DNA from: an uncultured bacterium
GTDB lineage: Bacteria > Hydrothermota > Tepidihabitantia > SM23-42 > CAYGYG01
Assembly: GCA_964354155.1 (NCBI GenBank)
Contig: CAYGYG010000007.1
Span: 49,903 to 113,902, forward strand
Length of the DNA: 64,000 bases
Reading direction: 5' to 3'
The notes under the pieces were generated by a model. That model ran no database searches. It saw only the letters and a list, made by a program, of their open reading frames with translations, and was not told the origin of the DNA. Numbering within the stretch: the stretch's first letter is position 1; each line of letters begins with the position of its first letter. This document shows, piece by piece, positions 1-23,954 of the stretch. A program made the translations under genes and the position numbers.

Positions 1-1900
1 GACCAATTTCCGAGGCGTGTGGAAAACGGTCAACGGCGGGGCTTCGGACTGGATTGCGTGCAACAATGGTCTGGCTACGTCAGCGCAAAGAATCGCCTAC
101 GGCAGTGTCCACCCCAATCAGCCCAACAACCTCTGCATTCTTGCTTCAGGGGTGGGTATCTTCAAGTCAACCGACGGCGGCGGCCTCTGGGTCTCAAAGA
201 ACGCCGGCAATCCGGATTCGACAAGGATCAGCTGTTTTGAAAGGCAGCCTCAAGACCCGAATGTGCTTTTTGCCGCGACCTCAAACGGATTCATATACCG
301 GAGCACTGACAACGCCGAGACCTGGACCTGCCTGAATACCGGCAACGCGCTGCCGGTCAACCTGCGCGCCATGATAATCGACCCGAGAGATGTCAACCTG
401 ATGTATGCCGGTGCCAACGGTCAGAATCAGTTCTGGAAGAGCACGAACGGCGGTGTCAACTGGGCGCTCAAGAACAACGGGATCGTCGGCTTCGGCGGAT
501 GGATTCACGGTCTGACCATTGACCCGACGAACTCGGCGGTGCTGTATCTGAACGGGTACTCAGGTGCAATAATGAAGAGCACGGACCGCGGTGAGAACTG
601 GTTCTTTGCCGGCACTGGCATAGGACAGGAGATCAATGCGATAAATATCGACTACACGAATCCCAGCACCATCTATGCGGCAGGGATAGGCTGGATCGGC
701 GGTTCCGGCGTCTGGAAGAGTACCGACAAGGGTCTGACCTGGGCCAGGCTGACCGGTGGCTTCCCAACCGACCGGCCTTATCCATCGATCCAGGCAATGG
801 CTATGGATCCCGCAGATCCTCACATCCTGTACGTCGGCGGGTGGCCGATGAGCGGATTTGCGCCCATCGGCGTATACAAGACAACGGACGGTGGTGCAAA
901 ATGGGATTCAACCAATACGGGTCTGGGCAGTAGGGAGATCAGGGCGCTGGCGATTGATCCATTGAATCCAAGTACGGTATATGCAGCCACGGCCGGTGGT
1001 TTGTTCAAGACGAAAGACGGCGGTGCAAAATGGGATTCGACCAAACTGCTTACCCCGCTGGTCAGGTCACTGGCCATTGATCCTAAGGATACCAATGTCG
1101 TGTACGCGGGATTATATGGGGTAGCCACAGTCAGCAAGAGCACGGACGGCGGCGAGACTTGGAACGGCACGCGCCTGGCCGACGGCGATAGTACGGTAGT
1201 ATGTATTGCCATCGCTAGGGCGAACTCGAATATCATATACGCTGGAACCGTAGGTGATAATGCCGGCGTCTACGTTTACAAATCAACTGACGCAGGGCAA
1301 GCATGGCAAAAGAAAAGCAGTGGTCTGCCAAAGCTGCAGGATCCTGACAGCATGCGTTGGCATAGACCCAAAGGCCTGAATACTCTGGCCATCGATCCCT
1401 TCAATCCCAATGTTGTGTATGCAGGCGTTGCGCTTGAAGGCGGTATCTACAGAACTACTGATGGCGGTGAGAACTGGAGTGCGATGAACAGCGGCTATGA
1501 CGGGTTCCCGTTTACGGACAAACTGGTTATTGATCCTGCAGATCGGAAAACCTTGTATGCCGGGTCATATGCCGGGGTTTGGTCCTACACGGCCTTGACC
1601 ACGCCCGAGCCGGCCCCGGATACGAACCAGGCCGTGGCATTTCCCAACCCGGCCCGGGGCAATCGCGTGACCTTCGCCTACCATCTTGAGTTCAATGCCG
1701 AGGTGAGACTGAAAGTCTATGGCCTGTCCAAAGAGCTTGTCGCATCAGTAATCGAGCAAAAGACGGCCGGCGATTGCAGCACGGTGCTGGATATCACCGA
1801 CATTCGACCCGGAGTGTATTTCTTCCAGATCACGACCAAAAACGAGACCACGGATGAAATCGAGCATTGGAAGCGCCAGAGACTGGCGATAATCCGCTAA
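1..1900 (+). CDS. BNR/Asp-box repeat (sialidase/sortilin-like) secreted protein with T9SS C-terminal sorting domain; 5' partial (continues upstream of window)
   Basis: The 627-aa ORF has at least 10 'S/T-x-D-x-G-x-T/N-W' Asp-box motifs (KSTDGGGLW, RSTDNAETW, KSTNGGVNW, KTTDGGAKW and others). Its C-terminal ~80 aa match the conserved T9SS sorting-domain pattern (FPNPA...YDL.G..V...G.YF....T.). The reading frame stays open up to position 1, so the start lies upstream. Confidence 0.7.
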   Translation, partial: TNFRGVWKTVNGGASDWIACNNGLATSAQRIAYGSVHPNQPNNLCILASGVGIFKSTDGGGLWVSKNAGNPDSTRISCFERQPQDPNVLFAATSNGFIYRSTDNAETWTCLNTGNALPVNLRAMIIDPRDVNLMYAGANGQNQFWKSTNGGVNWALKNNGIVGFGGWIHGLTIDPTNSAVLYLNGYSGAIMKSTDRGENWFFAGTGIGQEINAINIDYTNPSTIYAAGIGWIGGSGVWKSTDKGLTWARLTGGFPTDRPYPSIQAMAMDPADPHILYVGGWPMSGFAPIGVYKTTDGGAKWDSTNTGLGSREIRALAIDPLNPSTVYAATAGGLFKTKDGGAKWDSTKLLTPLVRSLAIDPKDTNVVYAGLYGVATVSKSTDGGETWNGTRLADGDSTVVCIAIARANSNIIYAGTVGDNAGVYVYKSTDAGQAWQKKSSGLPKLQDPDSMRWHRPKGLNTLAIDPFNPNVVYAGVALEGGIYRTTDGGENWSAMNSGYDGFPFTDKLVIDPADRKTLYAGSYAGVWSYTALTTPEPAPDTNQAVAFPNPARGNRVTFAYHLEFNAEVRLKVYGLSKELVASVIEQKTAGDCSTVLDITDIRPGVYFFQITTKNETTDEIEHWKRQRLAIIR

Positions 1901-1912
1901 GGGAGGATTGAG

Positions 1913-2797
1913 ATGAAAACGATCATTGCCTTATTCCTGCTGATACCGGCGGTGGCACTTGCTGACCAGAGCGGCATGGAGTTCCTCAAGATCGGGGTCG
2001 GGGCAAGACCGATGGCTATGGGCGGTGCCTATGTTGGGTTTGCCGAAGGTGCCGAAGCCGGTTACTGGAACCCGGCCGGCCTGACCCAGATCGAGCACAT
2101 CGAGTTGTCCGCGACGCATCTTCAGTGGTCGACCGACGTGATGTATGAATTCCTGACCTACGGGCAGAAGCTTCCTGGTATCGGTTCGGTCGGCGCCAGT
2201 CTGTTCTATCTTGACGTCGGCGAGATCGACGCCCGGGATGATTTCGGTCAGGTGCTGCCGGTGATTACCGCCTACGACGCCTGCGGTATGGTCTCCTTCG
2301 CGCGGGCGATAAACCCGATGCTGAGTGCGGGCCTGAGTGTGAAGGGATTCCAGGAGAAGATCGGCGACGATGCGACTTCGGGCTTTGCGGTCGACGTCGG
2401 CGGCCTTGTCCGCTTGGCCAAGGTCAGTGTCGGTTTCAACGTCCAGAACCTCGGTATGAAGATGAAGTTCGTGGATGAGGAATTCTCCTTGCCGATGACC
2501 GGGCGGTTGGGCGTGGCCTTTCGTCCGCTGCCAGCATTGGCCCTGGCTCTTGACGGCGACTATCAGATCGTCAACGAGCGAGGCGCGGTGCATTTTGGCG
2601 GCGAGTACTGGATCAAAGAGATGGTGGCGGTCCGGGCCGGCTATCAGTACAAGAACAAAGACGATGAACTGGGGCTTCTGAACGGCCTGGGTGCCGGCTT
2701 GGGCGTTAAGTACATGAAGTTCGGTGTCGACTACGGTTATGAGCCTTCGCCTGAGTTGGGCGATATCCATCGCATCTCTCTGAAAGTCAGTCTGTAG
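1913..2797 (+). CDS. PorV/PorQ-family-like outer-membrane beta-barrel protein (T9SS-associated), putative
   Basis: It has a signal peptide and the N-terminal motif 'FLKIGVGARPMAMGGAYVGFAEGAEAGYWNPAGL', which is typical of the PorV/PorQ family. The rest shows beta-barrel-like alternating hydrophobicity. A GGAGG ribosome-binding site lies 7 nt upstream of the ATG. Confidence 0.5.
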   Translation: MKTIIALFLLIPAVALADQSGMEFLKIGVGARPMAMGGAYVGFAEGAEAGYWNPAGLTQIEHIELSATHLQWSTDVMYEFLTYGQKLPGIGSVGASLFYLDVGEIDARDDFGQVLPVITAYDACGMVSFARAINPMLSAGLSVKGFQEKIGDDATSGFAVDVGGLVRLAKVSVGFNVQNLGMKMKFVDEEFSLPMTGRLGVAFRPLPALALALDGDYQIVNERGAVHFGGEYWIKEMVAVRAGYQYKNKDDELGLLNGLGAGLGVKYMKFGVDYGYEPSPELGDIHRISLKVSL

Positions 2798-2856
2798 AAA
2801 GAATATCGGGCCAGGGCTGTATGGCCCTGGCCCGAATGTTTAAGGAGGCACGAATC

Positions 2857-3891
2857 TTGAGAAAGACCTGGCTGGGTGTTCTGCTTCTGGCATCGGTGGT
2901 CTGGTGCGTGAACCTGGACAGCCTGTATCAATCGGCCCAGCCCGGCGAAGGCTATGATAGGCTGCTCACATTGGATTCGCTCCAGACATATGAAGGTGGA
3001 TTCACGGCTCTAGAAGGGAAGAAGTCCGGTATGAAGGGGTTTGGAGCGATCATAGACTTGAGCCGTGGTGCCGTGCATCAAATCGCTGCCAAAGGTAGTG
3101 GAACGGTTCTTGATATGGCGCGCTGCGTAATCATTAATGGCGCAGACGTTCTGGCGGCCTTGGATTACAGTGATAGCGTCTCGGGGAGGCTTGACCATTT
3201 GACACTGGTCGGGGGCTACAACGGCATACAGTTTTGGCACGGGGAAAGCCTTATTCTCAGAAACAGCATAGTTGTGAATAGTTCGAATTATGGCGTGGTG
3301 ACGCATGATAGTTGTCTCACTTGTTTCTTAATTTCTTACAACGACGTCTGGAGTAATCAAAGAGGTAACTACATGTGCTGGTTTGGCTCTTGTTGAGAGC
3401 CCTATTGGGGAGAGTTCTCCCCATCTCCAGGTACGGGCAATATTAGTACGGATCCGATATTCGTTGACGCAGCCAATGCCAACTATCGGCTTAAAGAAGG
3501 TTCTCCATGTGAAAATCGTGCCGATGACGGTTACAACATGGGGGCGTACCTTGGCGTTTGGAAAGAACCGCCTAAACCCGACACGATTGTGATGAGTCAG
3601 GTCAACCAGAATCGGCCGAATCCTTTCAATAACAACACGCTGATAACGTATCAGATTCTTTCCAGAAGAAGCTCGGCTAACGTTGCCCTCGTAGTCTACA
3701 ACAATCGCGGCCAACGGGTCCGAACTTTGGTCTCGGAAGTGAAGACCAATGGAACGTACTATACGTACTGGAATGGCAAAGACGAAAGTGGCCAACCGGT
3801 AAGCTCGGGTTTCTACTTCTGTTGCCTCCGGGTGGGAAGTGAATACGTGTCATCGATCAAAATGCTGTGGGTAGTGCCGGTAACAAGATAG
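2857..3891 (+). CDS. Right-handed beta-helix (pectate-lyase-fold) secreted protein with T9SS C-terminal domain; single in-frame TGA at 3394-3396 (candidate selenocysteine codon or nonsense mutation)
   Basis: A TTG start at 2857 lies 8 nt after an AAGGAGG ribosome-binding site and is followed by a signal peptide. ORFs 2821-3396 and 3538-3891 share frame 1. Translation across the TGA is continuous (...YMCWFGSC-U-EPYWGEFSPSPGTGNISTDPIFVDAANANYRLKEGSPCENRADDGYN...), a typical beta-helix C-terminus, and there is no start for the downstream part. The C-terminal domain matches the T9SS sorting-domain pattern. Confidence 0.5.
3407..3422 (+). promoter_or_regulatory. SECIS-like hairpin downstream of in-frame TGA (GGGGAG-AGTT-CTCCCC)
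   Basis: It has a perfect 6-bp GC-rich stem and a 4-nt G-containing loop. The loop lies 17-20 nt 3' of the TGA at 3394. Confidence 0.3.
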
Positions 3892-3900
3892 GAATGAGCG

Positions 3901-4923
3901 GTGAAGACGTATTCAATGCCTAGAATCTGGCTCATGGTTTCTGTTTCATGCTGCTTTCTCGGGGCGAGTCAGCGAGCCGGTGCGGGATTCCTCCTGATAT
4001 GGCCCGGCGCGCGATCCACGTCCATGGCCGGGGCTTTTTCAGCGATCGCTGATGATGCCACAGCTTGTTACTATAATCAGGCGGGCCTGGCTTTTATGAA
4101 CGGTATTAACGCTTCCCTGCAACACTGTAACTGGCTGCCGGGGCTGGACAAGGGAATGTATTATGAATATGCCGGCGTCACCAAGTCGTTCACTAAGGGA
4201 ACAGCGGGAATCGATATTATCTATTTAACGACTGGTGAAACCAGCGTAGTGGGCGGTGACGGCACTCCGCAGGGAACATGTAAGGCCTTTGATATGGCCG
4301 CGGGTGTAAACTACGGCTTGAAGTTGAACCCGCGTCTGGGCATCGGTGCTGGTTGGAAGTTCATTTATTCATATCTGGTTGCTCCCTGGGTCTGGACGGC
4401 CATTCCAGATCTGCAGATAAGAGGCGGGGGAGTAGGATTGTCTTTCGCTTTCGACCTGGGGATGCTTTACAAACCCTCTGATTTATTCTCGTTCTCGACG
4501 GCCTTGCAGAACATCGGACCGAATATCAAGTACTGTGAAACCTCTACGGCAGATCCTTTGCCCTATACTCTCCGATTGGGTTTCAAACTCCAGCCCATCG
4601 AAACCAAAGCGATCAAGGGCACCCTTACGGCGGATATTACTAAAGTACTGGCGGGAATGTTTGGCTACCCCGACAAGAGCTCGCGCGAGAAGCTGAACTA
4701 TGAATTCAAAGAGGCCTGGAAGAGTGTTGGCCTTGAACTCAGCTACTTCGGCTTTGCCTTCATACGAGGCGGCTATTTCTCTGACTACGAGGGGTGCAGG
4801 AACGGATTCACATACGGTGCTGGGATCAAAGTCAAGGGATTTTCCCTGGACGTTGGAATAGACCAGGACCTCTATGGATTCAGCACCACCAACCAGAAGT
4901 TTTCCCTGTCCTGCCTACTTTAG
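3901..4923 (+). CDS. PorV/PorQ-family-like outer-membrane beta-barrel protein (second paralog), putative
   Basis: It has a signal peptide and the same N-terminal motif as the 1913-2797 paralog (GARSTSMAGAFSAIADDATACYYNQAGLA). It ends in an aromatic/hydrophobic C-terminal beta-strand (FSLSCLL). Confidence 0.5.
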   Translation: MKTYSMPRIWLMVSVSCCFLGASQRAGAGFLLIWPGARSTSMAGAFSAIADDATACYYNQAGLAFMNGINASLQHCNWLPGLDKGMYYEYAGVTKSFTKGTAGIDIIYLTTGETSVVGGDGTPQGTCKAFDMAAGVNYGLKLNPRLGIGAGWKFIYSYLVAPWVWTAIPDLQIRGGGVGLSFAFDLGMLYKPSDLFSFSTALQNIGPNIKYCETSTADPLPYTLRLGFKLQPIETKAIKGTLTADITKVLAGMFGYPDKSSREKLNYEFKEAWKSVGLELSYFGFAFIRGGYFSDYEGCRNGFTYGAGIKVKGFSLDVGIDQDLYGFSTTNQKFSLSCLL

Positions 4924-8341: not shown

Positions 8342-9370
8342 ATGAAACGATTGAATGCTTTGGTCATATGTCTCGTGCTCGGACTGGGCCTGCTGAGTGG
8401 AGCTTTTGCTGCCCAGCGAGTGGTTTTGTGTGAAATGCTTTATGGAGAAGGTTGAGGAAGTTGCCCTGCAGCTAGTAGTCTACTAGCAACCCTGGCGATA
8501 AGATATCCGGGTCGGATTGCCCAGACTGAACTGCATTGCGCGTCCGGCTATCCACTTTACCGAGCCGAAGCCTATAATCGGGCGATGTGGTACGGTGCTC
8601 AATACTACAGCGATACCTACATGGACGGCACGTATGCCGGCCATTCGGGCAATTCCGCCAACTGGGAAAACTTGCTGGTCGCTCGTATGAATAGGCCTTC
8701 GCCGATGACGGCGACGATGTGGGGTACGTATAATCCGACCACTCGAAATGGCAGGATCTACTCCAAGTTCCGGAATGATTCGACCGGAACCATAGCGGGG
8801 AATATCTACTTCCTTATCATTCGGGACAGTGTTCGTTATTCATCCCCCAACGGTGACCTTTGGCATAACTACGTCGCGCACGACTACCTGCCAAGTGAAG
8901 TAGGTACTCCGGTAACGGTCCTTCCGGGCGATACCGTAACCCAGTACCGTGATTTTTCGATACCCGATTCATTCAATGTCAGCAAGTGCATGATCTATGC
9001 CTGGGTACAAAGAACCACGGGGACCAGGGAGACCTATCAATCTGGCATCAAGAATGTGACGAGTCTTCTTGAGGTTGCCGAGCAGTCGAGTCGGGTTCCG
9101 GATTTGGCCAAGATCGAGCTTGTCCCGAATCCCTGCAACGGAGAAACCAGCTTCCTGCTTGAGCTACCGGCGGGCGCGCCTTATGCCATTAAGCTCTTCG
9201 ATATGTCAGGAAGACAAATAAGGGTAATGGCAGGTCAAGCAAAAGGCGGCAAGGCAAGAATAACCTGGAATTGCAGAGATGACCGGGGCCGGTCGGTTAA
9301 CCCGGGAGTCTATTTCTATGCCCTGAACAGCAGTAGAATCAACGCTTCGGGTAAGATCATTGTAAGATAG
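8342..9370 (+). CDS. Secreted hypothetical protein with T9SS C-terminal domain; single in-frame TGA at 8453-8455 (candidate selenocysteine, U-G-S-C context)
   Basis: An AAGGAGG ribosome-binding site precedes an ATG at 8342, and a signal peptide (MKRLNALVICLVLGLGLLSGAFAAQ) follows. The TGA and the downstream ORF 8585-9370 are in the same frame. The read-through peptide (GEG-U-GSCPAASSLLATL...) is continuous, and the downstream part has no signal peptide or start of its own. A T9SS C-terminal domain is present (ELVPNPCNGETSFLLELP...GVYFYAL). Confidence 0.5.
8471..8487 (+). promoter_or_regulatory. SECIS-like hairpin downstream of in-frame TGA (GCTAGTA-GTC-TACTAGC)
   Basis: It has a perfect 7-bp stem and a G-containing 3-nt loop. 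The loop lies 23-25 nt 3' of the TGA at 8453. Confidence 0.3.
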
Positions 9371-9583: not shown

Positions 9584-10237
9584 ATGTCTCTCCACGGAGG
9601 CAATTTGGGCTTCGATGATATTAAAAATGCCATTGTTGGATTCGACGATGATCGGATTAGAACCCTCGTGAATTTGGCGCTGAAAGAAGGGATTGCGCCG
9701 GCGGAGCTTTTGGAGAAGGGGTTAATCCCGGGCATGAAGGAAGTCGGAGAGCGGTTTGCTCGAAAAGAGTACTTCGTGCCGGAAGTATTGATGGCGGCTG
9801 AAGCGTTCTATGCGGGGTTCGACCTGGTGAAGCCCTTGATTAAGAGCACTGACCGGAAAGCAAGAGGCAAGATTGTGATCGGGGTTGTTGAGGGTGATAT
9901 CCACGATATCGGAAAGAATATCGTCAAGGTAATGCTAGAGGCTTCTGGGTACGAAGTGGTGGACCTGGGCAAGGACGTTCCGATCGCGAGGTTCATCGAG
10001 ACGGCCGCAAAGGAAAAACCGCAGGTTCTGGCCCTGTCCAGCCTTATGACAACGACAATGGTCAGAATGGGCGATGTGATTCAGGGGCTGCAAAAGAAGG
10101 GGTTACGTAAGGGCATCAAGATCATTGTCGGGGGCGCGCCAGTCAACCAGGATTTTGCCGACAAGATCGGGGCTGATGCTTATGGTGAGGATGCGGCCGC
10201 AGCAATGAAGGTGGTGGACAGCCTTCTGCAACCGTAG
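9584..10237 (+). CDS. Corrinoid (cobalamin-binding) protein of a methyltransferase system (MtmC/MtbC/MtaC-like)
   Basis: It has an N-terminal B12-binding cap followed by a Rossmann B12-binding domain. The DxHxxG motif is present (VEGDIHDIGKN), as is an SxL motif (ALSSLMTT). Confidence 0.8.
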   Translation: MSLHGGNLGFDDIKNAIVGFDDDRIRTLVNLALKEGIAPAELLEKGLIPGMKEVGERFARKEYFVPEVLMAAEAFYAGFDLVKPLIKSTDRKARGKIVIGVVEGDIHDIGKNIVKVMLEASGYEVVDLGKDVPIARFIETAAKEKPQVLALSSLMTTTMVRMGDVIQGLQKKGLRKGIKIIVGGAPVNQDFADKIGADAYGEDAAAAMKVVDSLLQP

Positions 10238-10302
10238 CGAGGGTTGTCGTTGGGGATAAACCCCAACGCTACAGTCTCGTAGCGCCGGGGCTCGTCCCCG
10301 GC
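10234..10302. repeat. REP-like intergenic palindromic element (GTAGCG...[GTTGGGGATAAACCCCAAC]GCTACAG...GTAGCG[CCGGGGCTCGTCCCCGG])
   Basis: Two hairpin modules are bracketed by GTAGCG/CGCTAC arms. The element overlaps the TAG stop codon of the corrinoid-protein gene. A second copy lies at 24119-24177. Confidence 0.6.
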
Positions 10303-10322
10303 AATTATGCATATGTTGATTT

Positions 10323-11246
10323 ATGAATAAAATTGAAGACGTTCTTAATAACAAAAAGGGATTCGCGGTCTTCCCGATTGTTTGTGCCGATCACTGTGCT
10401 CATTTGTCTAAAATGGATTTTGTTGAGATGGCGCACAGTGGCGAGAAGCTGGCGGAAGTCATAGAATATGGCTATCGCCTCTATCAGTACGACATGGTTT
10501 TGGTCTTTGTCGATGCCTATGTTGAGGCGCAGGCGATGGGCTGTGAGATAGAGTTTGTTCCGTATCCGAGACTTAAATCAGATACACACGGATTGAAGCG
10601 GATGCAAACGGATACGAACCGAACCGGTGAGATTATAAAGGCGGCAAAGATCCTTAAGAAGAAAGTTGATGTTCCAGTATTTGTTTCGATCAAGGGGCCC
10701 TTCACGCTTGCTGCCTTCCTAGCGGGCCTCGATGAATTTTTGAAGATGCTTATTCGAGATCCGGAGAAGGCCCAGGCGATCATCAAACAGGCGCTCGATT
10801 TCCAACTCGCGTACCTGGAGCGACTGCTTGAAGTCGATGCCGACATCTTCATCGGCGACCCGATCGCTTCGGCCAGCGTTATTTCTCCGAGGAGTTTTGA
10901 ACGGTTCGCGTTACCGGCGCTGAAAACCTTAATGGGGAAAATCAAAGACCAAGGACATGTGGGCGGCATTCACATCTGCGGCGAGACCGGACCGATCGCG
11001 ACGGCGCTTGATGAATGCCGCGTCGACATTCTCTCGATCGAAGACATAACGGTGCCGACCAAAACCTTGAAGATGGGCGGCGTGTCAACATCAACCATAC
11101 TTGGCGGCGACCGGTCGGCGATCGAGAGTGAAGTCGAGGCCGCGTTACGCGAGCCATATCTTATTGTCTCAACTTCATGCGATGTCCCGGTTGAGACGCC
11201 GGTGGAAAACATCAAGGCAATGATTGAATATGCCAGAAACTCGTAG
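10323..11246 (+). CDS. Uroporphyrinogen-decarboxylase (URO-D) family corrinoid methyltransferase (MtaA/CmuA-like)
   Basis: It has a URO-D-like TIM-barrel sequence with conserved blocks (DAYVEAQAMGCEIEF; IGDPIASASVISP; HICGETG). Confidence 0.75.
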   Translation: MNKIEDVLNNKKGFAVFPIVCADHCAHLSKMDFVEMAHSGEKLAEVIEYGYRLYQYDMVLVFVDAYVEAQAMGCEIEFVPYPRLKSDTHGLKRMQTDTNRTGEIIKAAKILKKKVDVPVFVSIKGPFTLAAFLAGLDEFLKMLIRDPEKAQAIIKQALDFQLAYLERLLEVDADIFIGDPIASASVISPRSFERFALPALKTLMGKIKDQGHVGGIHICGETGPIATALDECRVDILSIEDITVPTKTLKMGGVSTSTILGGDRSAIESEVEAALREPYLIVSTSCDVPVETPVENIKAMIEYARNS

Positions 11247-11318
11247 CCGTTCTATTCGTCGAGCCAGGTGCTGGCCTGGACATCCCGGTATTTTCATGAG
11301 TCGTAATGTGATGATTCT

Positions 11319-12686
11319 ATGATCTTGCTCGACCTGCTAATCAAGCGACGCAGCCTGATCCCGGCCGGATGCAGCGGCCGGGGTCGGTGCGGGCAGTGCC
11401 GGATAAAAATGGTTAAACCCCGGAAACCGGATGAGATTGAGCGCCAGCTCATCCCGTCCGCGGTTCTTGACCAGGGCTATCGTCTTGCCTGCAGAAGAGA
11501 AGCCCACGAGAAATTCGTGCCCCGAGTGCGGACCACGCCCCGGATCCGAACCAGCAAGAGCAAAGAAATCGGACTGGCCCTTGATCTGGGCACGACAACG
11601 ATCAAAGGGCTGGCGGTTGATCTTAGGAGCGGCCGGACCATTGGGAAGGAAGCGGTCTTCAATCCTCAGAACGTCTTGGGGGCTGATGTCATCTCCCGAA
11701 TCGGCGCCGCGCTTGAAGGGAAATACACCTATCTCAGAAAACTGCTGATGTCGGGAGTCGAGGAAGTCATCCGGCGGTTGGGGATCAAGCAGCCGGTCTT
11801 TACTGCGGTCGCGGCCAACCCGGTGATGCGGTCCTTCTATCTCAATGATGCAGTCCAGGGACTCGCCCAGTACCCCTTTGAGAGTGTCCGTCGCGAAGCC
11901 GTCTGGCTTAAGAACCCCACCCGGTACGTCTTCCCGGTTATCGGCGGATTCGTCGGCGGGGACACAATTGCGGGGTTGCTTGCCGACCGTACACTGGAGA
12001 CGCGCTGTACCGTTCTCTACGCCGATCTGGGCACGAACGGTGAAGTTGGGCTGGCCTGGGGCGGCAAGATCGTTCTGGTTTCAACCGCCGCCGGTCCGGC
12101 ATTCGAGGGGTCGGGCATCAAGGGCGGCAGTCTGGCGCTACCGGGGGCAATCGACCGCGTTGGCTATCAGGGTGGTTTCAGGATTCGGACGATCGGGAAC
12201 AGAAAACCGGTTGGCTTCTGCGCCTCGGGACTGCTTGACTTGCTGGCTGTTCTGCGGCGCCGTGGGTGGCTGACTCCGGACGGTCGGCTGATGAAGCCGG
12301 TGGAGATCGGCGGCATCGCGATTGAGCAACAAGCGATTCGGCAGCTCCAACTGGCCATCGGCGCCATCCACGTCGGCATCATGGTGCTGCTTCTCAAATA
12401 CTCGATAGCCCCGGCCGAAGTCAGCCGGGTTATCCTGACCGGTGAATTCGGCGCCCATCTCAATCCCCGATCCCTGGTCGAGGTGGGCCTGATACCAACA
12501 GGCATCAAGAAAATCTCTATGGCCAGCGACCTACCGCTGCAAGGCGCCCTGAAATTCTTGCTTGACGCCAACGGCCTGGACGCGGTGAAATTGGTTCATC
12601 GGAACGCCCATCATCTGGAACTGGCACAGGAACCGGCCTTCGAACGGCTTTTTATTAAATCGCTCAGGTTGGCGCCATGGGATTGA
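11319..12686 (+). CDS. RACo-type reductive activator of corrinoid enzymes (N-terminal [2Fe-2S] ferredoxin + ASKHA ATPase, DUF4445)
   Basis: A plant-type ferredoxin cysteine pattern (CSGRGRCGQC...AC) is followed by ASKHA phosphate-binding motifs (LALDLGTTTIKG; ADLGTNGEV). Confidence 0.75.
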   Translation: MILLDLLIKRRSLIPAGCSGRGRCGQCRIKMVKPRKPDEIERQLIPSAVLDQGYRLACRREAHEKFVPRVRTTPRIRTSKSKEIGLALDLGTTTIKGLAVDLRSGRTIGKEAVFNPQNVLGADVISRIGAALEGKYTYLRKLLMSGVEEVIRRLGIKQPVFTAVAANPVMRSFYLNDAVQGLAQYPFESVRREAVWLKNPTRYVFPVIGGFVGGDTIAGLLADRTLETRCTVLYADLGTNGEVGLAWGGKIVLVSTAAGPAFEGSGIKGGSLALPGAIDRVGYQGGFRIRTIGNRKPVGFCASGLLDLLAVLRRRGWLTPDGRLMKPVEIGGIAIEQQAIRQLQLAIGAIHVGIMVLLLKYSIAPAEVSRVILTGEFGAHLNPRSLVEVGLIPTGIKKISMASDLPLQGALKFLLDANGLDAVKLVHRNAHHLELAQEPAFERLFIKSLRLAPWD

Positions 12687-13921
12687 TCCCGTTAGAAATC
12701 GGCGACTCTATGTTGGGTCACTCATCATCTGATGCTGATGCGAGAGACCGGGGCAGATTTCTAACGGGGCTGACCCCATTAGAGACTAAGCATACAGAGC
12801 GTTGTGCGCCTGATGGTAAGGGCTGTCCTGAAAAGGGCGGCAAGTCTCTAACGAGACTGACCCCATTAGAGACTAACGAGTCGGAAGGTTGTCCCCGTGA
12901 GGCGGGTGCCTGTCCTGCTAACCCCAGCAAGTCTCTAACGGGGCTTATCGGCTACACGTGTTCGTACACGCCGGTCGAAATACTGTCGGCAACCGGCTTC
13001 AGGCCCTATCGGTTGCTGCACGGAGATAGCGGGCGGTCAAGCGCGGGCGAACTGTATGTGCGGATTGACTCCTGTCCGTTGGTTAGATCGAACATCCGGT
13101 ATCTTGTCGAAAACAAGGATGACTTTGTGGCAATTGTCGGTTCCAGCGGATGCGATATGGCGCGGCGGATGCTCGAAGTCGTCGCGTACGAGACGAAGAT
13201 GCCGACCTTTCTGTTCAATAATCCGAGGACCGATAACCGGCGGATGTTCAACGACGAGATTGACTGGCTGGTTCAGGAACTGGAACGTTTTTCAGGCCGG
13301 GACTTGTCGGACCAGGCGTTGGCGCGAGAAATCGACCGCTGGGAAAGCGCCCGCTCGGTTTTTCGAGGACTTGACGCAAAGCGCCGTAGTCGCCCTTCGA
13401 TGATTTCAACAACGCGGCTGCACCAGGCGGCGATGAGCTATCATCAGGGTGCACCGAATGCGGCGCGGGAAGTCCCGGAAGAGGCTTCGGATCGACCCAG
13501 GATCTACCTGATCGGCAGCCCGATATCCTATGAATCGACCCCGATATTGTCGCGGATCGAGGAACAACTGCGCATTGTCGGTGATTTCAACTGCGGCATC
13601 TCGCGGTTTGCGGACCTGAAGGTTGAAGAGAAGAGCCGGCGCGGTATCAAGCAGGCCTATTATGGCCAGACGGCGTGCATCGTCAAACGGCCGAACACTG
13701 CGTTCTACGACCGAATCTACCGAGAGATCAAGGATCGCGAGTGCGTCGGTGTTGTTGCCTGGACATTAGACTTCTGCGATGCGTTTGAATTCGAGCTCAA
13801 TCGAATGGAACGCAAGATCGGGTTACCGATGTTGCGACTGAAGAGCGATTTCTCGGTCCAGAACCTAGGCCAGTTGAAAACCAGGATCGGGGCCTTTACC
13901 GAGATGCTGGATCACGAATAG
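12677..13921 (+). CDS. 2-hydroxyacyl-CoA dehydratase / benzoyl-CoA reductase BcrB-like subunit (HgdB-like); start uncertain
   Basis: The conserved core starts near 12940 (LIGYTCSYTPVEILSATGF...SCPLVRS...SSGCD) with the cysteine ligands of the HGD-D family. The first ~85 codons of the ORF are a tandem hairpin repeat and may not be coding. Confidence 0.65.
   Translation: MGLIPLEIGDSMLGHSSSDADARDRGRFLTGLTPLETKHTERCAPDGKGCPEKGGKSLTRLTPLETNESEGCPREAGACPANPSKSLTGLIGYTCSYTPVEILSATGFRPYRLLHGDSGRSSAGELYVRIDSCPLVRSNIRYLVENKDDFVAIVGSSGCDMARRMLEVVAYETKMPTFLFNNPRTDNRRMFNDEIDWLVQELERFSGRDLSDQALAREIDRWESARSVFRGLDAKRRSRPSMISTTRLHQAAMSYHQGAPNAAREVPEEASDRPRIYLIGSPISYESTPILSRIEEQLRIVGDFNCGISRFADLKVEEKSRRGIKQAYYGQTACIVKRPNTAFYDRIYREIKDRECVGVVAWTLDFCDAFEFELNRMERKIGLPMLRLKSDFSVQNLGQLKTRIGAFTEMLDHE
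12688..12945. repeat. Tandem structured repeat (about 87-bp period, about 2.2 copies), each unit a nested hairpin (GTCTCTAA-CGRGRCTGACCCCA-TTAGAGAC), preceded by an inverted arm CCCGTTAGAAATC
   Basis: Direct repeat units lie at 12756-12787, 12844-12877 and 12931-12945. The arm at 12688-12700 is the reverse complement of the GATTTCTAACGGG at the start of the first unit. Confidence 0.6.
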
Positions 13922-13951
13922 CGCGAATGGCAGCGAATAGCAGGATGATCC

Positions 13952-15283
13952 ATGTTTGACGATCCCAGACCCAGAAAGATTACGCTCCATGAATGGAGCG
14001 AGCAGTTTCGGCAGCTCGACGAGAGCATCATCAGGCAATTCACCTATTACGGCAATCCGCAATGGGGCAACTACCTTTCACCGCCGGCAACATTCATGGT
14101 TTATGGGGCGAAGGAGCTGAAGCGACTGCGACTGGATAACTCGCTGGCTGCGCTTCGCCTCTGGGGCTTCGTTTTCAACGAATCCGAGAGATTGTTTCGG
14201 GCTCGCCAGGTCGGCAAGAAGGTTATCGCGACGATGGGCGATTTGGGCATCGTGCCGGCCATCGTCATGGCCTTCCCGGATTGTGTGCCTTTCTATCCGG
14301 AGTGTATCTGGTGGACGCCCTTTTTTAGGGAATCCAAAGACCTGCTCCATACCGCGACCATGCTGGGCACCCCTGAAGCCAGCTGTTTTGTCCGTGCCGC
14401 CCTTGCGGCATTCTACAAGAAGGCCTATTTCCCCAATCCGGACTTGCTGATCGGCTCAACCGGCGCTTCGTGCGATGACTATTCCGGCGTGATGCAGCTG
14501 GTCGAAGATCTGGGCCATGAGGTGCTGTGGGTCGAAATACCGATGAGGAAAGGCGCTCGAGCCGAAGAATATCTGCTAGCTGAGTACGAGCGAATCTTAG
14601 GGAGAATGAAACAGTTGACCGGGGTTGCGTCGGATCGTGGATTGATCGAGAGCATCCAGAAAGCCAACCGATTGAGAGGGACGGTCAAGAAGTTGAAACA
14701 GCTCTGCTACAACGCCCCGATTGCGCCTCTGCCTGCGCTGGAATTGATGACGATTGAGTTTGGGAATATGTACGGCTACGGCGATTTCGATGAATGGACA
14801 AGAATCGTGGAAGCGGTGTACGAGACGGTCGAACAGCGGGTCGCCCTGAAACGCGGCGTGCTTAATGCGGACGCGGTGCCGATTGCCTGGGTGAGCCCAT
14901 CGCCGGATCCGTACGTGCTCAATCTGGTTGAAGACCTCGGCGGCCGGGTTGTCGCGACCGAATACGTGATCAACCAGGCTCTCGTCGAGATCGACGAGAG
15001 TATCGAGCCGGTGCGGGCGCTGGCCCGGGCTTTTCTGCAGGCTTCGCTCATTGGCTCGACCGAGGAGAGGGTTGGCAGAATCCGAAAGCAGATTGAGGCC
15101 GGCACGGTGCGCGGGGTTCTGATCACCAACTCAATGGGTGCGTCCCACTGTGCGATGGAGACGCGGCTGATCGAGAAGATGCTGGGTAAGGTTCCGGTGC
15201 TTTCGATCGACATCCCGGAGCCGTTCGGCATCTCCGGGCAGGTTCGAACCCGGCTTGAGGCCTTTATGGAAATGATTGGATAA
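13952..15283 (+). CDS. 2-hydroxyacyl-CoA dehydratase / BcrC-like subunit (HgdA-like)
   Basis: It shows HGD-D family conservation (FPDCVPFYPECIWW; GASCDDYSG) and directly follows its partner subunit. Confidence 0.65.
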   Translation: MFDDPRPRKITLHEWSEQFRQLDESIIRQFTYYGNPQWGNYLSPPATFMVYGAKELKRLRLDNSLAALRLWGFVFNESERLFRARQVGKKVIATMGDLGIVPAIVMAFPDCVPFYPECIWWTPFFRESKDLLHTATMLGTPEASCFVRAALAAFYKKAYFPNPDLLIGSTGASCDDYSGVMQLVEDLGHEVLWVEIPMRKGARAEEYLLAEYERILGRMKQLTGVASDRGLIESIQKANRLRGTVKKLKQLCYNAPIAPLPALELMTIEFGNMYGYGDFDEWTRIVEAVYETVEQRVALKRGVLNADAVPIAWVSPSPDPYVLNLVEDLGGRVVATEYVINQALVEIDESIEPVRALARAFLQASLIGSTEERVGRIRKQIEAGTVRGVLITNSMGASHCAMETRLIEKMLGKVPVLSIDIPEPFGISGQVRTRLEAFMEMIG

Positions 15284-15474
15284 GCGAATGACTCAAATGA
15301 CAGCGAATGACTCGAACAGCGAACCTACGACACGTTTTGTCATTGCGAGTCCCTGTGGGACGTGGCAATCTCATTCTCATGCAGAATCGTGTACTGTAAC
15401 GGTTGGATTCATCCGATGTGATGCAGCATCATTCGCCAAGGTCGCTGGAATCCGTCATATTCGCGAGTGATGGC

Positions 15475-16500
15475 ATGAAGGATATTTTAACTCCCCGAGA
15501 ACGATTCGGTCTGCTCATCATTGACGAGAAGCCGGATCGATGCAATGTCATCCCGCTGATCACGTCACATGCGGCCATTGTCGCCGGAGTATCGGTTAAG
15601 AAGTACTACACGCAGGGCGAAGTAATGGCCCGGGCGCAGCTTGCGGCCATCGAAGAGTACGGCCATGATGCGATTTCGATCTTCTCGGAGGTCGGCATCC
15701 TGGCCGAGGCCATGGGCTCGAAGTTCGAATACCCGGAAGATGACCTGCCGATCTTCAGGGAGCCGGCCTTAGGCAAAGCCGGGCCTGAAACGCTGTCAAC
15801 ACCCAATCCGACCCAAACCGGGCGCTTGCCCGTCTATCTTGAAGCGATCCGCTGTGCTTACGATGCAGTCGGGGATACTATCCCGGTGCTTGCTTACGTG
15901 CCGGCGCCGTTCACGACCGGAATGATGCTCTGTCAGCCGGAGCAGTTCCTGATTGACCTGGCGCGGAATCCGGCACGGGTTGATGCCATTATGCAAAAAG
16001 CATTGGATGCTGCGATCGAGTTCTGCTACGAAATAATCAATGCTGGAGGCCTGCCGGTCCTGGTCGATCCACTGGCCTCAGGGAGTGTCATCAGCCCGGC
16101 AACCTATCGGAAATTCGCTCTGCCGTACGAAGCCGAACTGATAAAATTTCTTCACCGGTACGATCTCGACATTATTCTCCATATCTGCGGTGATACGAGG
16201 CCGATCGTTGATATATTGCCCGAGACCGGGGCCGACCTGATGAGCTTCGATCATCTGGGAATCGACGTGGCCCTGGAGCGGTTGTCAGGCCGGATGCGTT
16301 TGATAGGTAATTTCGACACGTCCCGTCTGGTCCTGTCTTCAGCTGATGTAATCGGCCGGGAAGTGGGCGCAATGGTCGCGGGCGCGAAGGAGGCTGGGAG
16401 AGGTTACGTCGCATCCACTGGCTGCGAGGTGCCTTTATGCGCGCCGCGCGACAATGTTTTGGCCTTTGTCAAAGCCGCCAAAGAAGCCGGAGCCTATTGA
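15475..16500 (+). CDS. URO-D family corrinoid methyltransferase (second MtaA/CmuA-like paralog)
   Basis: It contains URO-D-like blocks (LTPRERF; VDPLASGSVISP; HICGDT). The ATG at 15475 (MKDILTPRERF) fits the family N-terminus better than the upstream ATG at 15403. Confidence 0.7.
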   Translation: MKDILTPRERFGLLIIDEKPDRCNVIPLITSHAAIVAGVSVKKYYTQGEVMARAQLAAIEEYGHDAISIFSEVGILAEAMGSKFEYPEDDLPIFREPALGKAGPETLSTPNPTQTGRLPVYLEAIRCAYDAVGDTIPVLAYVPAPFTTGMMLCQPEQFLIDLARNPARVDAIMQKALDAAIEFCYEIINAGGLPVLVDPLASGSVISPATYRKFALPYEAELIKFLHRYDLDIILHICGDTRPIVDILPETGADLMSFDHLGIDVALERLSGRMRLIGNFDTSRLVLSSADVIGREVGAMVAGAKEAGRGYVASTGCEVPLCAPRDNVLAFVKAAKEAGAY

Positions 16501-20262: not shown

Positions 20263-21372
20263 CTACTCGAAGAGCTTCAAGTATTCGGCGTAGCCTTCCT
20301 TCACCAGATCCTCCTTAGGGATGAAGCGGAGCGAGGCGGAATTGATGCAGTAGCGCAAACCGGTCGGGGCAGGCCCGTCATCAAAGACATGGCCGAGGTG
20401 GGAATCAGCGTGCTTGCTTCGTACTTCGGTCCGGACCATCCCTTGGTTCGTATCTGGCTTTTCGACGACCACCGCGGCGTCGATAGGCTTGGTGAAGCTG
20501 GGCCAGCCGCATCCGGAGTCGAACTTGTCTTTCGAGCTGAAGAGCGGTTTGCCAGAGACGATATCGACGTAGATCCCGTCGCGCTTGTTGTTCCAGTATT
20601 CGTTGCCGAAAGGTCGTTCGGTTTGGTTTTCCTGGGTTACCGTGTACTGAAGTGGGGTCAGTCGTTTCTTCAACTCCTCGGCCGAGGGTTTGATATGCGG
20701 GTTATTATTCATCGATAACTCCTTTTTTTCTTCACGGCCCCAGGTCTTCTTGATGTAGGCGTCACGGCCCGACAGGAGTCGATAGCTCTTGTAGCGCACC
20801 GGGCACTTCTTGTAGTAGTCCTGATGATATTCCTCGGCGGGGAAAAACTCGGTCAACTTGAGAATCTGGGTCGCGATCTCTTTCTTGAACCGACCGCTCT
20901 CTTCAAGGGACTTCTTCGACGCCTCGGCCAGCCTCTTCTGGTCGTCGCTCGTGTAGAAGATCGCGGTCTGATATTGGCTCCCGCGGTCCGCAAATTGGCC
21001 GCCGGCATCGGTGGGATCGATCTCGTGCCAGAACACATCGAGCAGTCTCTCATAGCTTGTTCGTTTTGGATCGTACGTGATCTGAACCGCTTCAGTGTGG
21101 CCGGTTGTCCCGGAACAGACCTCTTCGTAGGTGGGATTCCTGACCGTACCCCCGGTGTAGCCCGCGGTCACCTCAATAACCCCTTCAATCTTTTCAAAAG
21201 GCGCCTCAAGGCACCAGAAACAGCCGCCGGCAAATACGGCCTTGGCCAGCTTGGCGTCCGGGCCAGTAGCCGCCTTTGCTTTCTTGGACGACGGACTGCT
21301 TTGAGAGAAGCTCAACAGTACCGGCATGAAAACTACAAATAAAGTCAGCGTTTTCATTATTGTGTTCTCCAT
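20263..21372 (-). CDS. msrAB: Bifunctional peptide-methionine sulfoxide reductase MsrA/MsrB with signal peptide
   Basis: It has the MsrA motif GGCFWC and the MsrB motifs CGWPSF and RYCINS. A signal peptide is present at the N-terminus. Confidence 0.9.
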
Positions 21373-21549
21373 ACGGTTCAGGCTTTAGACAATCCGAGAG
21401 TCGGAACGTTTACTGGTCTTGCCGACGACGCGGCCCGTTTCAGATTCCCGACGCCCGTGAACGAAATGAAACATAACCCGCGCTGTGTCGCCCGGCGACA
21501 ATGCGATTGACTTAAAGCCGGGTCGGCATATACTTGGCCCGGGAAAGAC

Positions 21550-21933
21550 GTGAAGAAATCACGCAATTCGCTCACGCCCTGCGGCCTTGACTGCGCGGCC
21601 TGTTCGATTCATCTGCGGACCGAAGAGGAGCTGGACTACTGGGGTAAGCAGAATGTCGACCCGGATAAGATCCGCTGTGACGGTTGCCGGTCCGACCGCC
21701 GAGGGGCACACTGGTCGCCGGACTGCAAAATCCTGCAGTGCTGCGCATACGACAAGGGCTTGGAGTTCTGCGCGCAGTGCAGTGATTTTCCTTGTACCGC
21801 CTTGCAAGAGTGGGCCGGGGGATACGGCCACCATGCCATGGCGGTTGCCCGGCTCAAACAAATGAAGCAGCAAGGCATCGAGGAGTGGATCCGGTCATAC
21901 TTGGTTCTTGACCCGGGGACTCATGAGCCTTGA
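21550..21933 (+). CDS. Cys-rich DUF3795-family protein
   Basis: It shows multiple CxxC-type clusters (PCGLDCAACS; CDGCRS; CAQCSDFPC). Confidence 0.5.
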   Translation: MKKSRNSLTPCGLDCAACSIHLRTEEELDYWGKQNVDPDKIRCDGCRSDRRGAHWSPDCKILQCCAYDKGLEFCAQCSDFPCTALQEWAGGYGHHAMAVARLKQMKQQGIEEWIRSYLVLDPGTHEP

Positions 21934-22786: not shown

Positions 22787-22816
22787 GGAGGATTCCATCT
22801 ATCAAGGAGGTTCTTT

Positions 22817-23275: not shown

Positions 23276-23426
23276 GGGGCCTTGTCTCGGGCCGATGGGC
23301 TTGGCCGGAGACAACTTGGCGTAATCCATTGATTCATCAGGTTGTCTAAATGGGGTATTGGGAGCGAAGAACACCGACGCTTGGGCCGGTTATCTTCGAA
23401 TGTGAAGGGTTAGGAAGGAGTTAGAG

Positions 23427-23936: not shown

Positions 23937-23954
23937 CTAAGAAAGGAGACGCAA

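What the first reader, a model, noticed from the sequence alone, without database searches (positions are those of the whole stretch)
2857..3891. Beta-helix T9SS cargo with a single in-frame TGA (C-U dyad) followed by a hairpin
Frame-1 translation is continuous across the TGA at 3394-3396 (...NQRGNYMCWFGSC-U-EPYWGEFSPSPGTGNISTDPIFVDAANANYRLKEGSPC...). The downstream part is the canonical end of a right-handed beta-helix plus the T9SS domain and has no independent start. A 6-bp GGGGAG/CTCCCC hairpin lies 17-20 nt downstream. A Cys immediately precedes the TGA (a CU dyad, as in thioredoxin reductase). This is the same architecture as three other genes in the window, which argues against four independent pseudogenes.
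Basis: partly seen in the sequence, partly recalled or inferred. Interest (0 to 1): 0.7.

Follow-up and report, generated by a model that had tools for sequence, protein, structure and literature searches.

The report
Selenocysteine codon in secreted beta-helix protein
The in-frame TGA in this gene is very probably a real selenocysteine codon, which makes the gene one member of a large, uncatalogued family of secreted beta-helix selenoproteins; in related bacteria the gene sits beside selenium-handling genes.

Summary
One reading frame runs from TTG 2857 to TAG 3891 and is interrupted only by TGA 3394-3396. A Cys codon precedes the TGA, and a 7-bp hairpin with an AGUU loop (3406-3423) follows it.

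The selenocysteine reading is well supported:
- Six orthologous genes were checked at DNA level and 11 orthologue protein clusters (58-100% identity) were examined. All stop at this codon.
- Fourteen distinct family genes read at DNA level all carry TGA, never TAA or TAG.
- Downstream of the TGA, dN/dS is 0.18, so that part is translated in frame.
- A 62-nt stretch spanning the TGA and hairpin is identical between two orthologues whose synonymous sites are otherwise saturated (P about 5e-5).
- The hairpin meets the published bacterial SECIS criteria and shows one compensatory A-U/G-C change.
- More distant full-length homologues carry Cys (C-G-C, C-S-C) where about 35 truncated clusters stop.
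- Orthologous loci place the gene next to a CU-type TonB-dependent selenoprotein receptor, YedE, selB and a Sec-form selD.

The organism belongs to candidate division WOR-3. No catalogue consulted lists a beta-helix selenoprotein.

Main weaknesses: the window holds no Sec machinery, the hairpin's energy is not exceptional, and the protein's function is inferred only.

The parts
2842..2848 (+). Shine-Dalgarno-like AAGGAGG, 8 nt before the TTG start
   Evidence: Read directly from the sequence. Orthologue L001 has AAGGAG before its TTG start.
2857..3891 (+). Complete coding sequence of the beta-helix selenoprotein precursor. It has 344 codons, with Sec at codon 180. It starts at TTG 2857 and ends at TAG 3889-3891.
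   Evidence: dN/dS is 0.11 upstream and 0.18-0.19 downstream of the TGA.
2857..2925 (+). N-terminal signal-peptide-like segment (MRKTWLGVLLLASVVWCVN). The mature part starts at the conserved LDSLYQ motif. The end coordinate is approximate.
   Evidence: Read from the sequence. Invariant L20 D21 S22 Y24 Q25 in alignment A3. No signal-peptide predictor was run.
3376..3393 (+). Conserved Cys-x4-Cys (C174 W175 F176 G S C179) immediately before the Sec codon
   Evidence: Invariant C174, W175, F176 and C179 in 11 orthologues.
3394..3396 (+). In-frame TGA, read as selenocysteine (residue 180)
   Evidence: TGA is conserved in L001, L002, L015, L016 and L017. It is also TGA in 8 more distant family genes.
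3406..3423 (+). SECIS-like hairpin. The stem pairs 3406-3412 with 3417-3423, and the loop AGUU is at 3413-3416.
   Evidence: 7 bp, -11.9 kcal/mol, 16 nt from UGA to loop. The loop is invariant. Pairing is 95% across six orthologues, with one A-U/G-C compensatory pair.
3367..3428 (+). 62-nt stretch identical to orthologue L001, although synonymous sites elsewhere are saturated
   Evidence: In a codon-column shuffle, a run this long arises with P about 5e-5.
3397..3570 (+). C-terminal cap of the beta-helix (PSPGTGNISTDPIFVD...YRL..GSPC...MGAY)
   Evidence: Aligns with full-length homologues.
3616..3888 (+). FlgD-Ig-like / T9SS type A C-terminal sorting domain
   Evidence: Pfam FlgD_ig scores 33.9 bits (cut-off 27). 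Por_Secre_tail, CHU_C and TIGR04183 score below their cut-offs. The same domain in the model of homologue P0138 matches the C-terminal domains of PorU and PorZ.
1913..2797 (+). PorV-like outer-membrane beta-barrel gene, conserved directly upstream
   Evidence: Pfam PorV 28.5 bits. The same gene is found upstream in L001, L002, L015, L016 and L017.
3901..4923 (+). Second PorV-like gene, directly downstream. In L016 and L017 this position holds YedE instead.
   Evidence: Pfam PorV 30.2 bits. It is 59% identical to the L015 neighbour. YedE in L016.
2..1900 (+). BNR/sortilin-like T9SS cargo gene, first member of the conserved cluster. It is cut by the window start.
   Evidence: It is 44% identical to its L015 counterpart.

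Best explanation
TGA 3394-3396 is a selenocysteine codon.

Translation (inferred from the anatomy and from the known bacterial mechanism):
- SelB carrying Sec-tRNA(Sec) binds the hairpin at 3406-3423, whose loop is AGUU.
- Sec is inserted as residue 180, and translation continues to TAG 3889.

The product (domains shown by sequence; the export route is inferred):
- The 344-aa precursor has a signal peptide, a small right-handed beta-helix and a T9SS-type C-terminal domain.
- It should therefore cross the inner membrane by the Sec translocon and reach the cell surface or the medium by type IX secretion. The two flanking PorV-like barrels are the likely shuttles.
- The Sec lies in a Cys174-x4-Cys179-Sec180 loop, between the last helix coil and the C-terminal cap.

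The family (shown):
- The gene belongs to a large family in which Sec forms outnumber Cys forms. The motif is C-x(0-2)-U/C.

Function (inferred, low confidence):
- The Cys-Sec site is a surface-exposed centre for redox chemistry or for binding a chalcogen or a metal.
- In related WOR-3-like genomes the gene forms a conserved cluster with a CU-type TonB-dependent selenoprotein receptor. That cluster lies beside YedE, selB and selD. The protein may therefore act in capturing or trafficking selenium, or a related chalcogen or metalloid, at the outer membrane.
- The sorting domain is encoded after the UGA. Only ribosomes that insert Sec make an exportable protein.
For: Continuous frame:
- The frame is continuous across the TGA, and full-length homologues span the site.

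Conservation of the TGA:
- The TGA is conserved in orthologues L001 (75% aa identity), L002, L015, L016 and L017, with flanks C-W-F-x-x-C-U-x-P-Y-W-G-E-F.
- Eleven orthologue clusters of 177-181 aa all end in ...CWFxxC. The downstream halves were called as separate ORFs.
- Fourteen distinct family genes read at DNA level all have TGA. In the window's own large ORFs TGA makes up only 13 of 44 stops.

Selection:
- Downstream of the TGA dN/dS is 0.18-0.19, compared with 0.11 upstream, while dS is about 1.1.
- A 62-nt identical run spans the TGA and hairpin (P about 5e-5).

Hairpin:
- It meets the bSECIS criteria quoted from PMC13188914: 7 bp, loop AGUU, 16 nt spacing, -11.9 kcal/mol.
- The loop is invariant, 95% of cells are paired, and one pair is A-U in three sequences and G-C in three.

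Sec/Cys pairing in the family:
- About 35 clusters at 50% identity stop at this site. Six full-length relatives have Cys there and one has Trp.

Sec use in this lineage:
- In L016, selB scores 337 bits against TIGR00475.
- L016 selD has an in-frame TGA giving the U-x-x-K motif.
- L016 has two YedE genes and an SclA-like gene. The neighbouring receptor matches TonB_dep_CU.
- L015 has selB at the edge of the locus.
- The window itself holds an AhpC/TSA gene with W-U-P-L-C and an Omp28-related selenoprotein-like gene.
Against: - The window contains no selA, selB, selD or tRNA-Sec. selA and tRNA-Sec were not seen in any locus either.
- The hairpin is not more stable than dinucleotide shuffles (z = -1.09) or synonymous recodings (fraction 0.096). 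The peptide W-G-E-F-S-P largely dictates it.
- Covariation rests on a single pair among six related sequences.
- The UGA-to-loop spacing of 16 nt is at the lower limit of the model.
- In an ungapped register this subfamily's Sec is one residue after the family's Sec/Cys column. No orthologue with Cys exactly at the Sec position was found.
- No Rfam SECIS match was found.
- Nothing here is experimental. The functional part rests on gene neighbourhood in four loci.
Confidence: 0.88

Rival explanations
1. The UGA mainly terminates translation. The real product would be the 179-residue beta-helix fragment without a sorting domain. Any full-length protein would come from low-level read-through by a near-cognate tRNA (Trp, Cys or Arg), without selenocysteine.
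For: - UGA is the leakiest stop codon (established knowledge).
- Gene callers split every family member at this site.
- One homologue has Trp at the family column (P0168).
- The hairpin energy is unremarkable.
Against: - The downstream 164 codons are under purifying selection in frame. They encode the helix cap and the only export signal.
- TGA, rather than any stop codon, is kept in 14 of 14 genes.
- Homologues carry Cys at the site.
- The hairpin loop and pairing are conserved.
- selB and selD lie next to the orthologous gene.
Confidence: 0.07
2. The gene is a pseudogene disabled by a nonsense mutation, or the TGA is an assembly or sequencing error.
For: A single in-frame stop in an otherwise intact gene is what a recent nonsense mutation looks like.
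Against: - The same TGA is present in independent assemblies and in orthologues down to 58% identity.
- dN/dS downstream is 0.18 at dS of about 0.6-1.1.
- Other genes in the window are intact.
Confidence: 0.02
3. The organism reads TGA as a standard amino acid (Trp or Gly) through a reassigned genetic code.
For: There are four in-frame TGAs in one 64-kb window.
Against: - TGA ends 13 of 44 large ORFs, including genes whose Pfam domain coverage stops right at the TGA. For example, URO-D covers residues 31-361 of 365, and the RACo gene is covered in the same way.
- G+C content is 55%.
- The orthologue in L015 itself ends with TGA after the sorting domain.
- selB and selD are present in relatives.
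Confidence: 0.01
4. These are two separate genes. The second would be made by re-initiation just after the TGA.
For: In L016 the codon after the TGA is GTG, and a gene caller started an ORF there.
Against: - In the window and in other orthologues that codon is GAG, ACA or ACG, which are not start codons.
- There is no ribosome-binding site and no signal peptide for the second half.
- Cys-form relatives are single ORFs.
- The split falls inside one domain.
Confidence: 0.02

Closest known systems
TonB-dependent receptor, CU motif-type selenoprotein (NCBIfam NF049946)
   Same: - It is a predicted outer-membrane selenoprotein with an adjacent Cys-Sec dyad (..PNC-U-DRPIW).
- A strong hairpin follows its UGA.
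- It is encoded in the same conserved cluster as the orthologues of this gene in L002, L015, L016 and L017.
   Different: - It has an unrelated fold: a 22-strand barrel with a plug, rather than a beta-helix with a T9SS domain.
- The window starts downstream of where this receptor would lie, so its presence in this genome has not been seen.
Catalogued bacterial selenoproteins with CU, CxU or CxxU motifs (Table 1 of PMC13188914: HgcA, SaoL, SaoC, MbdU, KCU-star and others)
   Same: - They share the recoding mechanism: a Sec-UGA with a hairpin directly downstream.
- They have Sec next to or near a Cys.
[quoted passage not shown]
   Different: - None of the 119 listed families has a right-handed beta-helix or a T9SS sorting domain.
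- No NCBIfam selenoprotein model matches this protein.
Omp28-related selenoprotein (NF045500) and Prx-like thiol:disulfide oxidoreductase selenoproteins
   Same: They are exported selenoproteins. Relatives of both are encoded in this same window with T9SS-type C-terminal domains.
   Different: They carry U-x-x-C redox motifs, and the Prx-like one has a thioredoxin-like fold. This protein has C-x4-C-U in a beta-helix loop.
Mammalian thioredoxin reductase, Gly-Cys-Sec-Gly C-terminus
   Same: An adjacent Cys-Sec pair that can form a selenenylsulfide (established knowledge).
   Different: - In TrxR the dyad is at the C-terminal end of an FAD/NADPH flavoenzyme.
- TrxR uses a eukaryotic 3'-UTR SECIS.
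- Here the dyad is internal, in a secreted beta-helix, with a coding-region hairpin.
NosD and other right-handed parallel beta-helix proteins (PF13229, PF05048)
   Different: - The sequence hits of the window protein are below the Pfam cut-offs (NosD 14.9 bits).
- No catalytic residues of lyases or epimerases were identified.
- None of these families is known to contain Sec.

Membership tests
Bacterial selenoprotein gene (Sec-UGA plus bSECIS) | In-frame UGA with coding continuity and homology on both sides | tested here: met
   dN/dS downstream is 0.18.
Bacterial selenoprotein gene (Sec-UGA plus bSECIS) | UGA conserved at the same codon in orthologues | tested here: met
   Five orthologues besides the window were read at DNA level. 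Eleven protein clusters end at the site. Eight distant family genes also carry TGA.
Bacterial selenoprotein gene (Sec-UGA plus bSECIS) | Homologues with Cys aligned to the Sec | tested here: inconclusive
   This holds at family level: C-G-C or C-S-C in P0138, P0142, P0144, P0149 and P0179 aligns with C-G-U. In this subfamily the Sec is one residue after that column in an ungapped register. No exact-column Cys orthologue was found.
Bacterial selenoprotein gene (Sec-UGA plus bSECIS) | [quoted passage not shown] | tested here: met
   Loop AGUU, 7 bp, 16 nt, -11.9 kcal/mol. Criteria are quoted. Conservation and one compensatory pair. The energy is not exceptional against the null models.
Bacterial selenoprotein gene (Sec-UGA plus bSECIS) | Genome encodes selA, selB, selD and tRNA-Sec | tested here: inconclusive
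   None of these is in the window. selB and a Sec-form selD lie next to the orthologue in L016, and selB in L015. selA and tRNA-Sec were not seen.
Bacterial selenoprotein gene (Sec-UGA plus bSECIS) | Selenium demonstrated in the protein | not testable with these tools
   Needs 75Se labelling or mass spectrometry.
T9SS type A cargo protein | N-terminal signal peptide and a C-terminal sorting domain (TIGR04183 / PF18962) | tested here: inconclusive
   - FlgD_ig scores 33.9 bits, above its cut-off.
- TIGR04183 scores 20.8 (cut-off 23) and PF18962 scores 14.7 (cut-off 27).
- The signal peptide was judged by eye only.
- The C-terminal domain of the homologue model resembles those of PorU and PorZ.
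T9SS type A cargo protein | T9SS components in the genome | tested here: inconclusive
   Two flanking PorV-like genes score just above the Pfam cut-off (28.5 and 30.2 against 27). The core genes porK, porL, porM, porN and sprA were not looked for, and they are not evident in the window.
Right-handed parallel beta-helix (PF13229 / NosD-like) | Beta-helix fold | tested here: met
Thioredoxin-reductase-type GCUG redox centre | Cys-Sec dyad in a C-terminal GCUG tail of a pyridine-nucleotide disulfide oxidoreductase | tested here: not met
   The dyad is internal (residues 179-180 of 344), and there is no FAD or NAD domain.

The most novel reading that the evidence does not exclude
The beta-helix Cys-Sec protein, the CU-type TonB-dependent receptor, the PorV-like barrels and YedE together form a dedicated outer-membrane system for capturing and importing selenium (or a related chalcogen or metalloid). 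Surface-displayed Cys-Sec dyads would bind the element and hand it to the receptor, and from there to YedE and SelD. This would be the first specific selenium acquisition pathway across a Gram-negative envelope. Its own export would depend on selenium supply, because the sorting domain is encoded after the UGA.
Probability: 0.15. Interest if true: 0.85.

Novelty: new member of a known kind. Interest (0 to 1): 0.62.

Why it matters
- It adds a large, widespread selenoprotein family on a fold not previously linked to selenium. Sec forms outnumber Cys forms in the family, which is the reverse of the usual pattern.
- Gene callers split every member, so public databases hold hundreds of false 175-residue 'proteins' and orphan sorting domains.
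- The window shows four T9SS-type cargo genes with a candidate Sec codon. Selenoproteins may therefore be a regular part of the cell surface in WOR-3 and neighbouring candidate phyla.
- The linkage to a CU-type TonB-dependent selenoprotein receptor, YedE, selB and selD gives a concrete candidate for selenium-specific uptake. A 2026 review states that no specific high-affinity selenium transport system has been identified in prokaryotes.

Tried and rejected
- Two scans of genome contigs (single protein, then orthologue alignment A3) found no relative. The taxonomic spread across named genomes could therefore not be mapped.
- The one metagenome scan gave a single locus.
- Rfam gave nothing, at gathering thresholds or at E up to 10, around the TGA.
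- ARAGORN found no tRNA-Sec in the window or in five loci.
- The first synonymous-recoding script timed out. The faster version showed no significant excess stability for this hairpin.
- A control counting single internal stops of each type was uninformative. Non-coding frames and adjacent same-frame genes dominate it.
- Two translations of L016 selD were in the wrong frame and were redone.
- Single-sequence AlphaFold of P0138 failed (pLDDT 33).
- Foldseek against the PDB matched only the C-terminal domain.
- A single column-wise structure for the hairpins of the whole family was abandoned. The stem register differs between subgroups, so pair counts were made on the six orthologues only.
- Literature searches returned nothing relevant for selenoprotein with type IX secretion, NosD, parallel beta-helix or WOR-3.

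Full report
**1. The observation**

The frame starting at TTG 2857 runs to TAG 3889-3891. Its only interruption is TGA 3394-3396, in the context ...NQRGNYMCWFGSC*EPYWGEFSPSPGTGNISTDP.... The codon before the TGA is Cys.

The hairpin is present. The arms are U-GGGGAG (3406-3412) and CUCCCC-A (3417-3423), and the loop AGUU (3413-3416) lies 17-20 nt after the TGA.

The TTG start is preceded by AAGGAGG (2842-2848), and the closest orthologue uses the same arrangement. The C-terminal part hits FlgD_ig above the Pfam cut-off, and hits the T9SS sorting-domain models just below theirs.

The window has 55% G+C and no N. TGA ends 13 of its 44 large ORFs. Some of those genes have Pfam domain coverage that stops right at the TGA. 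This is not a recoded genome.

- TGA 8453, ...GEG-U-GSCP.
- TGA 35545, a BNR/sortilin-like gene.
- TGA 43256, where an AhpC/TSA domain spans W-U-P-L-C.

All three have T9SS-type C-terminal domains and downstream hairpins.

**2. Orthologues keep the TGA**

A metagenome scan returned L001. It is 75% identical in protein and 77% in DNA, it has the same PorV-like gene upstream, and it carries TGA at the same codon.

A word-indexed protein search returned 11 clusters at 58-100% identity. All are 177-181 residues long and end in ...GNY[MIV]CWF[GSAL][SGT]C. It also returned four 'proteins' that are the orphaned downstream halves. One cluster, P0201, is the window's own fragment from an independent assembly.

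DNA for four more orthologues (L002, L015, L016, L017) shows TGA every time, followed in frame by xPYWGEF...CTD.

**3. The downstream part is translated**

Between the window and L001, dN/dS is 0.11 upstream of the TGA and 0.18-0.19 downstream. dS is about 1.1 upstream and 0.6-0.8 downstream. A pseudogene of that age would not keep the frame or the amino acids.

The codon after the TGA is GAG, ACA, ACG or GTG, so re-initiation is not general.

**4. RNA-level constraint**

The window and L001 are identical over 62 nt (3367-3428), spanning the TGA and the hairpin. Shuffling codon columns gives a run this long with P about 5e-5.

Across six orthologues:
- The AGUU loop is invariant.
- 95% of stem cells pair.
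- One pair is A-U in three sequences and G-C in three. It links a Gly third position with the first position of a Ser/Pro codon.
- Three other pairs vary only within standard pairs (G-C to G-U; the outermost pair also fails to pair in two sequences).
- Slid-register controls pair only 64-86%.

[quoted passage not shown] Here the values are AGUU, 7 bp, 16 nt and -11.9 kcal/mol.

Two caveats apply. The folding energy is not unusual against dinucleotide shuffles (z = -1.09) or synonymous recodings (fraction 0.096), because the peptide W-G-E-F-S-P almost forces the pairing. The covariation rests on one pair.

**5. A large Sec/Cys family**

An exhaustive HMMER search with the N-terminal 191 residues found 74 cluster representatives at 50% identity. 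About 35 of them are proteins of roughly 170-250 residues that end where the query ends, typically in ...NYM.FCPG..WCSG..NCG or ..ECG.

DNA for eight of these genes (L004, L005, two copies in L006, L007, L009, L010, L012) shows TGA in every case. The frame continues into GGG.W.SF.PSPGTGEI..DP.F...SPC, and a hairpin lies at the equivalent place. Examples are GGACAG-GGUC-CUGUCC and GGACAU-GGUC-AUGUCC.

Together with the six orthologues, that makes 14 of 14 TGA.

Full-length relatives carry Cys at the stop column:
- DCGCG in P0138 (a cluster member is annotated candidate division TA06).
- DCGC in P0142.
- ECSC in P0144.
- WCGC in P0149.
- YCGC in P0179.
- WGC in P0151.

One relative, P0168, has Trp there.

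The family motif is therefore C-x(1,2)-[U/C]. The window's subfamily has C-x4-C-U. In an ungapped register its Cys179 occupies the family's Sec/Cys column, and Sec180 is one residue later.

**6. Sec use in the lineage, and the neighbourhood**

The window has no tRNA, no Rfam hit and no selA, selB or selD. GyrA places the organism in candidate division WOR-3, at 86% identity to a WOR-3 MAG.

The orthologous loci share a conserved gene order:
- a split TonB-dependent receptor,
- a 100-aa ORF,
- a BNR/sortilin T9SS cargo gene,
- a PorV-like gene,
- this gene,
- then either a PorV-like gene or YedE.

The window's flanking genes are orthologous to those of L015. The window begins inside the BNR gene, so the receptor would lie just upstream of it.

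The receptor matches NCBIfam TonB_dep_CU. It has its own in-frame TGA (..PNC-U-DRPIW), followed by a strong GGCCUCC-GGN-GGAGGCC hairpin.

Within 10 kb of the gene, L016 holds:
- selB (TIGR00475, 337 bits),
- selD with an in-frame TGA giving ..TAG-U-ASK (the U-x-x-K motif),
- two YedE selenium-transporter genes,
- an SclA-like cysteine desulfurase/selenocysteine lyase,
- a Se_S_carrier protein.

L015 has selB at the edge of the locus.

**7. Fold**

An AlphaFold model of the Cys-form homologue P0138, built with a 60-sequence alignment, reaches pLDDT 81. The value is above 90 through most of the helix and 65-79 in the Sec/Cys loop.

**8. Comparison with what is known**

The 2026 catalogue of 119 prokaryotic selenoprotein families and subfamilies lists no beta-helix, NosD-like or T9SS-cargo family. 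NCBIfam release 20 has no selenoprotein model that hits this protein. Full-text searches found nothing relevant.

Two of the other in-window candidates resemble catalogued families: the Omp28-related selenoprotein, and the Prx-like thiol:disulfide oxidoreductase.

Cys-Sec dyads are known in several bacterial families. [quoted passage not shown] The resemblance to thioredoxin reductase is limited to the dyad.

**9. Verdict**

The TGA is a selenocysteine codon with high probability (about 0.88). The gene is a member of a new selenoprotein family.

The mechanism of recoding is the ordinary bacterial one. It is inferred here from the anatomy and from conservation; it has not been demonstrated.

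The function is inferred with low confidence. The best guess is a surface-exposed Cys/Sec site, possibly working with the CU-type receptor and YedE in handling selenium or a metalloid.

Because the sorting domain follows the UGA, export of the protein depends on Sec insertion. This is an inference.

Noticed in passing
window 8342-9370 (TGA 8453-8455): A T9SS-type cargo gene with an in-frame TGA in ..LYGEG-U-GSCP (a U-x-x-C motif). It has a weak hit to NCBIfam NF045500, Omp28-related selenoprotein (34 bits, cut-off 200). A 7-bp hairpin with loop GUC lies 22 nt downstream.
   Followed up: partly
window 34276-36534 (TGA 35545-35547): A BNR/sortilin-like T9SS cargo gene with an in-frame TGA in ..GLEGAG-U-GNAELYKSTDGG and no nearby Cys partner. 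Its 8-bp hairpin (loop GGG, 33 nt downstream) is more stable than 99.8% of synonymous recodings. It may be another uncatalogued selenoprotein.
   Followed up: partly
window 41894-43843 (TGA 43256-43258): An LVIVD-repeat, Ig-like, AhpC/TSA and T9SS-domain protein. The AhpC/TSA domain spans the TGA at ..FGGGW-U-PLC, the position of the first Cys of the CxxC motif.
   Followed up: partly
L015 4120-6462; L016 4024-6330; L017 16-2325; L002 3-452: A TonB-dependent receptor split by an in-frame TGA (..PNC-U-DRPIW). It matches NCBIfam TonB_dep_CU and has a strong GGCCUCC-GGN-GGAGGCC hairpin 21 nt downstream. It is conserved in the same cluster as the beta-helix gene.
   Followed up: partly
L016 1110-3700 and 11095-19830: A selenium gene neighbourhood around the orthologue: two YedE genes, TusA, a Sec-form selD (..TAG-U-ASK), selB, a Se_S_carrier protein, an SclA-like desulfurase, and a second AIRS-domain (SelD-like) gene.
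   Followed up: partly
L004 15-761; L006 51-836; L010 336-1133; proteins P0149, P0151: Family members without a T9SS domain end in a conserved W-G-x-I-K-x-x-[FY]-R motif close to the C-terminus. This may be a different sorting or anchoring signal.
   Followed up: no
L006 51-836 and 871-1650: Two tandem paralogues of the family, each with its own in-frame TGA. Their hairpins differ by a compensatory closing pair (GGACAG/CUGUCC against GGACAU/AUGUCC).
   Followed up: partly
protein P0168: A full-length homologue has Trp (C-P-G-W-G) where relatives have Sec. TGG is one base away from TGA.
   Followed up: no
window 2806-2835: A 12-bp G+C-rich palindrome lies in the 59-nt gap between the PorV-like gene and the beta-helix gene. 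It looks like a terminator mainly on the minus strand. Its role is unknown.
   Followed up: no
window 20263-25649: A cluster of oxidative-stress genes typical of an anaerobe: an MsrA-MsrB fusion, a rubrerythrin-like gene, a desulfoferrodoxin-like gene, and a peroxiredoxin-rubrerythrin fusion.
   Followed up: no
window 9584-16500: A corrinoid-dependent methyltransferase set: a B12-binding protein, two URO-D/MtaA-like genes and a RACo activator. It is followed by two HGD-D genes. HGD-D genes also lie near selB in L015 and L016.
   Followed up: no
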